64,000 nt of DNA from Nitrosopumilaceae archaeon (lineage in GTDB: Archaea; Thermoproteota; Nitrososphaeria; Nitrososphaerales; Nitrosopumilaceae), in assembly GCA_035631875.1 (NCBI GenBank), contig DASQHX010000009.1, positions 301,281 through 365,280 on the forward strand, written 5' to 3'. Shown here piece by piece: positions 9,001-12,000 of this stretch (positions are counted from its first letter, which is position 1; each line of letters opens with the position of its first letter). Made by a program: the position numbers.

Positions 9001-12000
9001 AGAATAACCTTGATTAACAAGTTTCTCCATTACTCGATCTGCCAATTTATCAGCCAAGCTGTGTTCTGGTCTACCACAAGCAACTAAAGCCTTGTATACT
9101 GCGTTTGAAATTTTGTCCTTCTGGAAATTTAACACTCGACCGTCGCGTTTTTTTACTTCAATGATCGAGTTCTCTATTTGTGAAAAATCTGTCAAATGAC
9201 TCCCCGCAGACCTAAGAAAAGGGAGTTAAATAAAGATTGAGGCAAAAAATATTTTTCCAAAGATCGACTTTGGATCAACTTTATTGACACCATTACTATT
9301 TTCATAGTTTTAGATCTGTATAGAACCCAAATAAATCTTCAAGAAGATCCACATTCATATATCGCGTTTTTTAACTTCAATGATCGAATTTTCTATCTAT
9401 AAAAAATCTGTTAGTATTTCTACATCACGGACTAGGCAAGAAGCCACTTATGTACACATATGGAAGCTTCTTGTAGTCTCCTGTAGCCCTAGTTTTTAGA
9501 TCGTCATAGAACCCAAATAAATTTTCAAAAAATTGATCTAAATTTCAGGTAAATAAGATTATATTCTATAATTTTTTAAAAAATGTTATTCATAAATATT
9601 AATAAGATCTATTCAATGTTTAAGGAAATTTTAGGCAAGTATGTATGGTGATTTGCAAGTAGGACATTTGTCAGTAAGTTTTTCTTCCTTTAGGCCACAA
9701 TTACTACAAATATGCACCTTTCGTATTGGCCTGAATGAACTTACAAGTTCACTTGTTTTTTCTATAGCCTTTTTTATTATTGCTGCATCTGCGTTATCTG
9801 GGATTTTTAATTGTACTAGCAATCCACCATTAAGAGCTTTTGACATGTGATTAGCCTCAACAATTTTATCTGTTTTTAGATTCATTCCTTCTATTTCTGG
9901 AGCATTTAGTACTATTCCTTCAGAATATGATTCGCCTTCTACGTATTGGAGAACAGACATCTTACCATATTTTTCCCCATCCAAGGCTGAAAATCGTGCT
10001 GCCGCATCGCTTTCAGTCATAGATATGGTAACATTATCACCCATCTCTTTTCCTTTCTTGGTTGCTACTTCCATTGCTGTTGCTATAACTTTAGAGAATA
10101 TTTCTTGTCCAGCTTTGTTATTTTCATATCCAAGTATTCCAAACACTGCCTCCTTTAAGCCGATCAGATTAACTACTAAGGTAACTGAGCCCTTTTGCAT
10201 GTATTGGGTATTATTTGCAAGAATTGGATTAAGTCCGCGTCTAGTTAGATCTGATATTTCCTTCTTCCTAAGTGACATTGCTGCAAGTGCAGGCTTCATC
10301 AAGAGTGCAAGACGTGCTCTAAAGTATGTTTCATCTTTATTGGATTCAAATGCAAGTCTAGGCATATTAATTGAAAGTGACTGAAGGTTAATTGTAGTTC
10401 CAGTAGTTTTTGCATCTCCTCGTAAGATTCCTTTATTTGATACAATACCCTTTGAAAAGCTTACACGCCCTCCTAGTGCAATAATTTCAGAGAGTATATC
10501 GGAAAACTCGCTAACTTTGCCTTTTTCATAGTCTATTATAATACCAATTGAAGGAGTGGGTGTTGATTTTACATATTTTTTGTAACTTTCAAGTATTACA
10601 CCTATTAATTTTGAATCACTTCCAAGTGAGATTCTAAAGGAAGCAAGTGTACCATTTTTACTGTATCTTGGAGCAGTTGATGTTGCTGCAAATGCACTTG
10701 TAATCTTTTCTTCTACTTCACCAAGATTTTTTGAATATTTTTGCAAAATTGTTACTAATCCATCCATTATCACTTCCTGTGATGCTTCTCTAAACAATAA
10801 TGAAGTGAGTAACGATAATGATGTAGCAAGTTCATCTAATGTATTTATTGGAGGCACCCTAGTTACTCCAAGGAATTTTCCTCGAAGATCTATACCGTCT
10901 TCTAAGAGTTCTTTGATGTTTACAAATACTGTATCTGGTAAAAGTGACCATATTCCAGTATTTGTTATATGAATATCTCCTGAAAGATGTGAATCAGCAA
11001 CATCTTTTGGTAGTGTGTTTAGAACCAGATGTTCTCCAAAGACTGTTTGACCAGTCTTAAAGAGGAGACCCTCTACACCATTATGAATACCATCCACGTT
11101 TGTTATCATTTCATGAATGTCATATGCAGGAAGCCCAAACCTAGCAAGTTTATGCCTATAATCCTCATGTCCTTGCTCTAAAAGGACAGAATTTACCATT
11201 TCACGTATCAATGAGGCAGTAAGGTATGAAGTTTGGAATTTGTAGATACGGTTTTCTACCTCTTCAGTTATTTTTTGGGCAAGTTCAAGTGGAAGGCTAC
11301 CTTCACGTACAAGAGACTGGATTATCTTATGTGAGTTAAACTCCTCTATTGATTCATGTGAGGTTCTGACATACATCTTGCCACTCTCTATTATAGAGCG
11401 TTCTTCAATTTGTCTAGCAAGACTTAGGACTAGTTTTCCTAAATTTGTAATAGTGTAACGTCTTTCTGATTTATTCAGAGCCACTAGAGATTGTCTTAGT
11501 AGTTTTCTTAAGTGGTATGCAAATTTACCACTTTCTTTTTTTGATTTAAATCCAGCAAGAGATTTTAATTCTGAATAAGTAAGAGGTCCTTTTGAATTTA
11601 GGATACGTAAAATATCGATCCTGTTCGGGCTTGCCATTACCGAAAAGATCATTCTTACACGTTTTGATGCTGATTGTAAAATACCTCCTCGCTTTTGCTC
11701 ACCAAAGTCCTCACTCAGTTCCATGGCATGTCTAGATAGTATCGGTAAATAAGATTTGTGACTAAATTGATCCTTAAACTAGTATTTTTGATCAGTTTTT
11801 CTGTACATCTACTGTAAACTCAGAAGATGAAAGTGTTTGCCCACAAGAAGGACATTTATTGTTGTATGGTCTGATAACTTCTTTAACAGATTTTAACATG
11901 CGCATATTTGCAATTTTAGCACCGCATTTTCCGCATACAACATCAACTGACATGCGATCAGTTTCAGATAAAATTATAAAAGAACTGTTTTGTGTTTTTT

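What a model noticed while it worked through the whole genome (the two positions that open the first line are those of the whole stretch)
9631..11724. Dead class III RNR fused to wHTH and ATP-cone: candidate archaeal NrdR analogue
g746 is a winged-HTH + ATP-cone + NrdD-fold protein whose only four cysteines form the C-terminal zinc ribbon and which ends before the glycyl-radical loop; it lies directly upstream of the class II reductase gene nrdJ in a genome without NrdG. It is likely a (d)NTP-sensing transcription regulator of nrdJ built from a dead anaerobic reductase. That would be the first ribonucleotide-reductase pseudoenzyme and an archaeal counterpart of bacterial NrdR, kept across Nitrososphaeria.
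Evidence so far: Pfam: DUF7347/HTH_20 at 26-100, ATP-cone 117-189, NRDD E 2e-24. AF2 model pLDDT 76 matches class III RNRs, Foldseek E 1e-19, 12-16% identity; the profile hit to T. maritima NrdD runs to the Zn finger, where the protein ends. Cys only at 673, 676, 687, 690; no other Cys is conserved among 25 homologues, while HTH and ATP-cone residues are invariant. Matches in 52 of 61 class genomes, full length in all 16 family members; next to nrdJ in 23 of 30 loci; pair near in 475 genomes of the order. NrdG model under its cut-off, best hit is QueE. A 20-bp footprint lies before nrdJ in 14 of 16 family genomes and scores top at nrdJ in this genome. Not found in paper searches.
(Added by a program. 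Inside this text positions count along the whole contig: contig position 301,281 is position 1 of the stretch shown here. "Call 12" and the like, gene names such as g00115 and contig names such as C1 are that model's own, and its searches are not shown. The text may have been shortened before it was handed on; [...] marks where a part breaks off. The agent that wrote the report below was given it as the finding of a first reader that could run no searches.)

Follow-up and report, generated by a model that had tools for sequence, protein, structure and literature searches.

The report
Archaeal regulator built from dead reductase
Next to its only working ribonucleotide reductase gene, this ammonia-oxidising archaeon keeps a copy of the anaerobic reductase that has lost all its catalytic residues and gained a DNA-binding domain, and it likely acts as a gene switch for DNA-precursor supply that I could not find described in print.

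Summary
Confirmed. ORF 9631-11724(-), 697 aa, is winged-HTH + ATP-cone + class III RNR barrel + Zn ribbon (model pLDDT 89.8). The catalytic Cys and substrate motifs, invariant in 31 intact NrdD, are unconserved in 130 family members; this protein ends before the glycyl loop. The family is one clade beside intact archaeal NrdD, under purifying selection, in 111 of 121 Nitrososphaeria genomes and, by source labels, Bathyarchaeota, Thermoprotei and Asgard archaea. It lies upstream of nrdJ in 100 of 100 Nitrosopumilaceae loci. New here: one palindrome (TGTCAA-N6-TTGACA) emerged independently from RNR promoters and from the gene's own promoters, and held up in held-out sets (own promoter in the class 10/19, nrdD promoters 6/16, controls 3-5%) but failed at nrdJ (1/34) and own promoters (0/17) outside the class. 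The local box (9272-9291) is this genome's top hit; across the family it sits 27-29 or 37-38 bp before the TATA box, suggesting activation. Best reading: likely a nucleotide-sensing, autoregulated transcription factor for RNR genes. Binding, ligand and sign are untested. 'First RNR pseudoenzyme' is wrong (herpesvirus UL45/M45). The scan noted this family before in other genomes.

The parts
9631..11724 (-). Gene for the 697-aa HTH + ATP-cone + dead NrdD protein
11389..11667 (-). Winged-HTH domain (residues 20-112; GKFAYHL helix 92-100% conserved at G66, F68, Y70, H71, L72, L75, Y90, T93, G96)
   Evidence: Pfam DUF7347/HTH_20; profile hits to HlyU, NolR, ArsR structures; conservation; dN/dS 0.003
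11125..11376 (-). ATP-cone (residues 117-200), VRTS variant
   Evidence: Pfam PF03477; 25 of 84 columns at least 90% conserved, dN/dS 0.012
9730..11124 (-). Class III RNR barrel without beta-A Cys, finger-loop Cys, HxHD, NxN flap, PAKH, TPAE
   Evidence: dN/dS 0.07
9655..9708 (-). C-terminal Zn ribbon (C673, C676, C687, C690), remnant of the glycyl-radical domain; no glycyl loop follows
9272..9291 (-). Candidate operator before nrdJ: imperfect palindrome GGTGTcAA-N5-TTGAnCy
9294..9306 (-). Degenerate copy of a second palindrome (TATGAAnTTCATA) that lies 5 bp before the operator in many relatives; owner unknown
9225..9234 (-). Predicted TATA box of nrdJ, about 38 bp downstream of the operator
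   Evidence: read from the sequence; position conserved in relatives
11745..11762 (-). Conserved element in the gene's own promoter: GTCA half-site abutting the predicted BRE/TATA; candidate autoregulatory site
   Evidence: 91 of 112 family loci, unique in this genome; 1 of 1172 promoters
6538..9195 (-). nrdJ, class II (B12) ribonucleotide reductase with its own ATP-cone; inferred target gene
9342..9527 (.). About 186-bp insertion, a decayed duplication of promoter DNA and the first codons of nrdJ, absent from the four closest relatives aligned; upstream of the operator, which it leaves intact

Best explanation
This protein is a catalytically dead class III ribonucleotide reductase fused to a winged-helix domain, and it likely works as a dedicated transcription factor that binds a palindromic box before nrdJ and before its own gene, with binding or output predicted to be set by ATP/dATP at the ATP-cone. 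Shown: domain order, fold, loss of catalytic residues, single origin next to intact archaeal NrdD, purifying selection, linkage to RNR genes of two classes, and a shared upstream palindrome. Inferred history: an nrdD gene duplicated; one copy gained the HTH, lost radical chemistry and regulated the intact nrdD; in Nitrososphaeria, most of which lack nrdD, the box stands before nrdJ. Inferred mechanism here: a dimer binds 9272-9291, about 38 bp upstream of the TATA box and in helical phase with it, and likely helps recruit TBP/TFB (activation, about 55:45 over repression) when the dATP/ATP ratio is low, while a half-site on its own BRE/TATA would give negative autoregulation. The barrel most likely serves as a structural and dimerising body, not as a dNTP pocket, since substrate-site and specificity-site residues are not conserved. 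DNA binding, ligand, dimer and sign are untested.
For: Dead enzyme: in 130 family proteins no Cys column outside the Zn ribbon reaches 15%, while 31 intact NrdD are 100% conserved at the beta-A Cys, two finger-loop Cys, both His of HxHD and TPAE; the ENAN/ENSN flap is in 31 of 31 intact and 0 of 130 family proteins; 72 of 130 have no residue at the radical Gly column, 13 keep Gly. Function kept: dN/dS 0.003 HTH, 0.012 cone, 0.07 barrel, nrdJ 0.05. Origin: one clade, support 0.999, nearest intact NrdD are the VRTS-cone enzymes lying next to family genes. Linkage: nrdJ on the same strand in 100 of 100 Nitrosopumilaceae loci with enough flank; 12 of 20 further class loci in tandem, convergent or divergent layout; 7 of 20 loci outside the class next to intact nrdD, 2 next to nrdJ. 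Operator: the same palindrome came de novo from 61 RNR promoters (log-likelihood 110-120, shuffles at most 29) and from 34 own-gene promoters (94, control sets 36-43); cross-prediction AUC 0.81 and 0.80, 0 of 100 column-permuted matrices as high. Held-out: own promoters in the class 10 of 19 over threshold, nrdD promoters 6 of 16, controls 3-5%. Local box top-ranked in the genome; spacing to TATA 27-29 bp in 21 and 37-38 bp in 38 of 63 loci with at least 7 switches on the tree. NrdR found in 8 of 78 genomes, all in one family. Archaeal activators bind upstream of BRE/TATA and repressors downstream (PMC4158304, passages).
Against: No binding, ligand or expression data. Held-out failures: nrdJ promoters outside the class 1 of 34 against 2 of 20 in genomes without the gene; own promoters outside the class 0 of 17. 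Leave-one-family-out only 18 of 61 promoters and 6 of 19 families. The Nitrosopumilaceae box has a 5-bp, not 6-bp, spacer and shares only the half-site; the phylum-wide matrix ranks it 147th in this genome. G061 (86% complete) has a strong site (16.3 bits) but the gene was not found. The motif is AT-rich and often overlaps the TATA box. The cone has Thr/Ser where NrdR has the nucleotide-binding K50/R51 (PMC9110341 passages; the residue correspondence is my reading). 10 of 20 loci outside the class and 6 of 6 loci of one Asgard-labelled cluster have no RNR gene nearby. Genomes are kin, so counts overstate independence.
Confidence: 0.72

Rival explanations
1. It is a DNA-binding regulator, but of other or many genes (for example pyrimidine synthesis), and the box before nrdJ belongs to another factor.
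For: The local box differs in spacer from the phylum-wide motif; a second palindrome lies beside it; the motif is missing at nrdJ outside the class; many distant loci lie tail-to-tail with genes I read as pyrB/pyrI (names recalled).
Against: The same palindrome stands before the gene itself and before RNR genes; linkage to RNR genes persists through changes of orientation and of RNR class; the pyrB layout is convergent, with no shared promoter; no other strong intergenic site in this genome.
Confidence: 0.12
2. It regulates RNR genes but senses something other than adenine nucleotides, such as oxygen or redox state, zinc, or the partner enzyme, through the barrel or Zn ribbon; the cone is only structural.
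For: Cone K/R pair replaced by T/S; the ancestral target was an oxygen-sensitive enzyme; barrel under purifying selection.
Against: The cone is the most conserved domain (25 of 84 columns at 90% or more, against 9 of 465 in the barrel), keeps V119, E127, F129, K/R133 and adds invariant R120, R174, R190, R195; the VRTS form is shared with intact NrdD neighbours; the Zn ribbon is lost in 14 of 130 members.
Confidence: 0.1
3. It acts on the reductase protein (scaffold, heterodimer partner or inhibitor of NrdJ or NrdD), and the HTH is secondary.
For: The whole barrel is kept; class III RNRs are dimers; the gene is linked to RNR genes.
Against: The HTH has the lowest dN/dS (0.003); dimer-interface and specificity-site residues are not conserved; the neighbour switches between two RNR classes with unlike interfaces; a palindrome co-occurs with the gene.
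Confidence: 0.05
4. It is an active or reactivatable anaerobic reductase, as many database labels say.
For: Pfam NRDD match and source names.
Against: No Cys in the barrel, no glycyl loop, no substrate motifs; no activase or separate glycyl-loop protein found in the genome.
Confidence: 0.01

Closest known systems
NrdR (bacterial RNR repressor, Zn ribbon + ATP-cone; TIGR00244; PMC9110341)
   Same: Predicted RNR-dedicated and autoregulated; has an ATP-cone; palindromic boxes before RNR genes; NrdR was not found in this genome.
   Different: DNA-binding domain is a winged HTH, not a Zn ribbon; carries a 465-residue RNR barrel; the box differs and here lies upstream of BRE/TATA; cone K50/R51 equivalents are T/S; may activate.
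NrdD, class III ribonucleotide reductase (T. maritima 4COI, P. copri 8P23, S. thermophilus 9D3X, T4 1H78); closest are archaeal VRTS-cone NrdD
   Same: Fold, ATP-cone, NLPR and GxxE core motifs, Zn ribbon; tree position beside intact archaeal NrdD.
   Different: No catalytic Cys, no glycyl radical loop, no HxHD, NxN, TPAE or PAKH; N-terminal HTH added; no NrdG in the genome.
Betaherpesvirus inactive R1 homologues UL45/M45 (PMC5469499)
   Same: Ribonucleotide reductase large subunits that lost catalytic residues and took on a new role.
   Different: Class I, viral, act on host signalling proteins; no DNA-binding domain, no link to RNR gene control.
ArsR/SmtB-like winged-helix regulators (HlyU, NolR) and archaeal DUF7347 HTH fusions
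   Same: N-terminal wHTH matches.
   Different: NCBIfam ArsR/SmtB model far under cut-off (23 of 55 bits); no metal-sensing Cys in the HTH; the rest of the protein is an enzyme-derived body.
Enzyme-derived sensor transcription factors such as Bacillus PurR or ROK-family NagC (recalled, no call)
   Same: HTH fused to a domain descended from an enzyme of the pathway it controls.
   Different: Unrelated folds; here the donor is the whole RNR catalytic subunit.

Membership tests
NrdD (class III RNR) | Ten-stranded RNR barrel fold | tested here: met
   Foldseek E 5e-20 to class III structures; profile E 7e-41
NrdD (class III RNR) | Finger-loop thiyl Cys and beta-A Cys | tested here: not met
   No Cys before residue 673; columns 100% Cys in 31 intact NrdD, under 15% in 130 family proteins
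NrdD (class III RNR) | C-terminal glycyl-radical loop (R-x-x-G-Y) | tested here: not met
   Protein ends before it; 13 of 130 relatives keep the Gly, Tyr after it not conserved
NrdD (class III RNR) | Substrate-binding HxHD, NxN flap and TPAE helix start | tested here: not met
   motifs as defined in PMC4493059 section 8 and PMC11226230 passages
NrdD (class III RNR) | Activase NrdG in the genome | tested here: not met
   TIGR02491 and TIGR02495 under cut-off; best hits QueE-like and AmmeMemoRadiSam
NrdD (class III RNR) | C-terminal Zn site | tested here: met
   C673/676/687/690, 88-90% conserved in the family
NrdR | N-terminal Zn-ribbon DNA-binding domain; match to TIGR00244 | tested here: not met
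   N-terminus is a wHTH; no TIGR00244 match in the genome
NrdR | ATP-cone with V48, K50, R51, E56, K62 | tested here: inconclusive
   Cone present; V119, E127, K/R133 kept, K50/R51 positions are T121/S122 by my alignment reading
NrdR | Palindromic boxes at RNR promoters and own gene | tested here: inconclusive
   A different palindrome, supported in some held-out sets and not in others
NrdR | Nucleotide-dependent DNA binding and repression | not testable with these tools
   needs binding and transcription assays
ArsR/SmtB metalloregulators | Family model over cut-off and metal-binding ligands in the HTH | tested here: not met
   NF033788 23.3 of 55 bits; no Cys in the HTH

The most novel reading that the evidence does not exclude
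A whole ribonucleotide reductase was turned into a transcriptional activator early in archaeal evolution, before the split of TACK and Asgard lineages: the HTH dimer binds two to four helical turns upstream of the TATA box, the ATP-cone reads the dATP/ATP ratio, and the dead barrel is the arm that reaches TFB/TBP; its target moved from anaerobic nrdD to B12-dependent nrdJ as ammonia oxidisers became aerobic. It would be the main archaeal counterpart of NrdR, with opposite sign.
Probability: 0.3. Interest if true: 0.87.

Novelty: new variant of a known kind. Interest (0 to 1): 0.73.

Why it matters
How archaea match dNTP supply to need is largely open, since NrdR is rare there (PMC9110341; 8 of 78 genomes here). 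This gives a named candidate regulator, a predicted 20-bp operator and testable residues in an abundant, culturable group (ammonia-oxidising archaea). It is a clear case of an enzyme becoming the regulator of its own gene family, with graded intermediates (glycyl loop decayed, then lost, then Zn ribbon lost). It also corrects annotation: many aerobic ammonia oxidisers are credited with an anaerobic reductase that cannot work.

Tried and rejected
A homodimer prediction could not be run (tool not available), so the dimer is untested. Nine public RNA-labelled runs held only small shares as contigs; four were laid and say nothing on expression or starts; they only show contigs that skip the 186-bp insertion. 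The sigma-70 promoter scan is not suited to archaea. A separate glycyl-loop protein: no Pfam match and no credible ORF among motif matches. A phylum-wide operator at every RNR gene: rejected by the held-out nrdJ test. The phylum-wide matrix as a genome scanner in this AT-rich genome: not specific. Weak matches in family f5: four looked at are other HTH proteins, one is intact NrdD, so they are not counted as members. dNTP sensing at the old substrate or specificity site: disfavoured, residues not conserved. 'First RNR pseudoenzyme': rejected. Linkage to RNR genes in the Asgard-labelled cluster: not seen in 6 of 6 loci. Literature: ten searches and term look-ups in PMC9531940, its preprint, PMC9669993, PMC2795772 and PMC3019208 showed no description of this fusion; subscription journals and all supplementary files were not seen.
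Full report
Observation. The ORF at 9631-11724 (-) encodes 697 residues. Pfam gives a winged HTH (DUF7347 26-100, HTH_20 30-82), an ATP-cone (117-189) and NRDD (E 1.9e-24); the NrdD equivalog scores 79 bits against a cut-off of 326. 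The only cysteines are 673, 676, 687 and 690. nrdJ follows on the same strand at 6538-9195. The genome is 99.99% complete and has no other NRDD match, no NrdG or NrdG2 over cut-off (the top matches score best as QueE and AmmeMemoRadiSam), no Gly_radical match (a family that rang in only 4 of 14 controls) and no NrdR. An AlphaFold2 model from a 92-sequence alignment (pLDDT 89.8, pTM 0.82) matches class III RNR structures first, E 5e-20 at 15% identity, and the family profile aligns to four NrdD of known structure up to the Zn ribbon and to HlyU, NolR and ArsR at the N-terminus.

Is it dead? I aligned 130 family proteins (92 of alignment A1 plus 38 read from fetched genome loci; some overlap is possible) with 31 intact NrdD from the same phylum. 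In the intact set the beta-A Cys, two finger-loop Cys, both His of HxHD, T-P-A-E, the Pro and His of PAKH and the radical Gly-Tyr are 100% conserved; in the family these columns are unconserved and no Cys column outside the Zn ribbon reaches 15%. The ENAN/ENSN flap is in 31 of 31 intact and 0 of 130 family proteins. Motif roles are from PMC4493059 (section 8 read) and PMC11226230 (passages). Longer members keep a decayed glycyl loop: 58 of 130 have a residue at the Gly column and 13 keep Gly; 14 of 130 have lost the Zn ribbon. The gene is not a decaying pseudogene: dN/dS against six relatives of 95-99% identity is 0.003 (HTH), 0.012 (cone), 0.074 (barrel), and 0.053 for nrdJ. The cone is the most conserved domain (25 of 84 columns at 90% or more; barrel 9 of 465). 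It reads VRTS where NrdR has K50/R51, residues that contact nucleotide (PMC9110341, passages); the same VRTS form occurs in intact NrdD next door, so it is inherited, but nucleotide binding is not shown.

Range and origin. In 121 genomes of the class, 117 had some match. Four weak matches in family f5 were other HTH proteins and two (G015, G061) were intact NrdD, leaving 111 of 121, one of them strongly decayed (G037). In 201 genomes of the phylum, matches that include the HTH were listed for more than 20 families outside the class (193 lower matches were not listed). Source labels of representative proteins include Bathyarchaeota, Thermoprotei, Baldrarchaeota and Odinarchaeia, and one bacterial label on a 3.6-kb contig that may be misbinned (4 of 10 clusters gave an archaeal taxon); the Atlas lists clusters in Nitrososphaerota, Bathyarchaeota and Promethearchaeota. 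On a FastTree of cone plus barrel all 130 form one clade apart from the intact enzymes (support 0.999); the nearest intact NrdD are those lying next to family genes in f39 and f47, and closest of all is a second, HTH-less copy with Gly replaced (L122). No outgroup from outside the phylum was included, so the direction (enzyme to regulator) rests on the universal age of NrdD.

Gene neighbourhood. Of 108 Nitrosopumilaceae loci, 100 had enough flank and all 100 carry nrdJ on the same strand (some genomes were fetched twice, and one row, G108, is unpublished). Of 20 further class loci, 12 have nrdJ adjacent (7 tandem, 4 convergent, 1 divergent) and 8 do not. Of 20 loci outside the class, 7 lie next to an intact nrdD, 2 next to nrdJ, 1 next to the second dead copy and 10 next to none; five of these 20 were chosen because one search showed a second match nearby, so this is not a random sample. 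Six loci of one Asgard-labelled cluster show no RNR gene. NrdR was found in 8 of 78 genomes, all of family f21, where in the two loci read it sits directly before nrdD and the palindrome below is lacking.

The local box. De novo search in 65 dereplicated family intergenic regions gave GGTGTcAA-N5-TTGAnCy. A matrix from 44 loci of 58-80% identity ranks 9272-9291 first in this genome (21.1 bits, next 17.5); of 54 hits above 11 bits, 12 are intergenic and the next is 16.2. In 63 loci with a scored box the distance to the predicted TATA box is 27-29 bp in 21, 37-38 bp in 38, other or undetermined in 4, with at least 7 switches on the protein tree (recombination of promoter alleles could account for some). 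One-turn steps point to a protein that must face the basal machinery. Archaeal TrmB-family and Ptr2 activators bind upstream of BRE/TATA, repressors downstream (PMC4158304, passages), so activation is somewhat more likely than repression. The gene's own promoter carries GTCAnAAnTCTTAwTTA in 91 of 112 family loci, once in this genome and in 1 of 1172 promoters; it includes the predicted TATA box, so part of its conservation is the core promoter.

Does the box belong to this protein? From 61 RNR promoters of carriers outside Nitrosopumilaceae, palindromic search gave TGTCAA-N6-TTGACA (log-likelihood 110-120; shuffles at most 29). Before that count I dropped 4 loci without a usable promoter, shifted 9 windows by hand to repair start calls, and set aside G061 and G037 as ambiguous. 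The same motif came independently from 34 upstream regions of the family gene (94; four control sets 36-43), and each matrix separated the other set from 276 control promoters (AUC 0.81 and 0.80; 0 of 100 column-permuted matrices as high); 10 RNR promoters of non-carriers gave AUC 0.59-0.66. Leave-one-family-out put 18 of 61 promoters, in 6 of 19 families, above the 95th control percentile (the seed came from the full set). Fresh held-out sets split: own promoters in the class 10 of 19 (AUC 0.93; 1 of 20 too short), nrdD promoters of carriers 6 of 16 (AUC 0.82, four of the six in one family) against 0 of 4 in non-carriers, controls 3-5%; but own promoters outside the class 0 of 17 (3 of 20 unusable; AUC 0.64) and nrdJ promoters outside the class 1 of 34 against 2 of 20 in non-carriers. 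G061 has a 16-bit site though the gene was not found in its 86%-complete assembly. The Nitrosopumilaceae box shares the half-site but has a spacer one base shorter, and the phylum-wide matrix ranks it only 147th here. The reading that fits, made after the fact, is that the ancestral target is nrdD and that the box stands before nrdJ mainly in Nitrososphaeria, where intact nrdD was found in 5 of 28 genomes searched.

Mechanism. Shown: dead enzyme body, conserved HTH and cone, linkage, upstream palindromes. Inferred: a dimer binds the box through the HTH; ATP/dATP at the cone switches binding or the contact to TFB/TBP; the barrel is a structural body, as substrate and specificity residues are gone; a site on its own BRE/TATA limits its own level. 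I put 0.72 on a regulator of RNR genes in this sense, with the sign at nrdJ about 55:45 for activation.

Comparison and novelty. It works like NrdR but is not a member (no Zn-ribbon DNA-binding domain, no TIGR00244 match). It descends from NrdD but fails every catalytic test. It is not the first RNR pseudoenzyme, since betaherpesvirus UL45/M45 are inactive class I subunits (PMC5469499, passages); I found no earlier class III or cellular DNA-binding case. Ten paper searches (listings and abstract starts) and term look-ups in five RNR surveys (passages only) showed no description; subscription journals and supplements were not seen, and some databases already label members 'ArsR family regulator'. 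Transcription factors built from enzymes of their pathway are a known kind (recalled), hence 'new variant of a known kind'. The scan's index shows look-alikes in 41 windows of 38 genomes with the same reading; those notes are not independent support.

Local oddity. The spacer is 435 bp here against about 250 in the four closest relatives aligned, owing to an insertion of about 186 bp that repeats promoter DNA and the first codons of nrdJ in decayed form; contigs of two public runs skip it. The box and its spacing to the TATA box are untouched.

Noticed in passing
window 9342-9527: About 186-bp decayed duplication of the nrdJ promoter and first codons; several relatives also have lengthened spacers (L034, L050, L074, L076, L080, L094, L098, L117), L034 with a second copy of both boxes.
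   Followed up: partly
window 9294-9306; L016, L030, L036 and others: A second palindrome TATGAAnTTCATA lies exactly 5 bp before the operator in many Nitrosopumilus-type loci, degenerate here; it may belong to a second regulator.
   Followed up: partly
L122:4176-6083 (G123): A second, HTH-less NrdD copy with the radical Gly replaced (RSIAFY) lies directly downstream of the regulator gene and is the closest branch to the family; this genome has an intact nrdD elsewhere.
   Followed up: partly
L204:2535-2981, L205 (family f21): A bacterial-type nrdR sits directly before nrdD; all 8 f21 genomes searched have NrdR and also the HTH fusion.
   Followed up: partly
L118, L119, L124, L130, L133, L134, L150, L246-L251: The gene, or the gene plus nrdD, is often tail-to-tail with genes I read as pyrB/pyrI, and in L133/L134 head-to-head with one I read as pyrH (names recalled): possibly an ancient nucleotide-metabolism cluster.
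   Followed up: no
window 11792-11953 (-): A 53-aa ORF with two CxxC pairs lies directly upstream of the regulator gene and is conserved in many family loci; no NCBIfam match.
   Followed up: partly
L230:3058-5001 (G037), L308:1489-3222 (G200): Strongly decayed members with HTH and a barely recognisable cone and barrel.
   Followed up: partly
L226-L229 (family f5): A different family of 440-490-aa proteins carries the same kind of N-terminal HTH fused to an unrelated glycine-rich repeat region.
   Followed up: no
L174 (G061), L188, L191, L193-L195, L243-L245: nrdJ promoters in f4 and f12 often carry two copies of the palindrome some 65-80 bp apart, behind the same upstream gene.
   Followed up: partly
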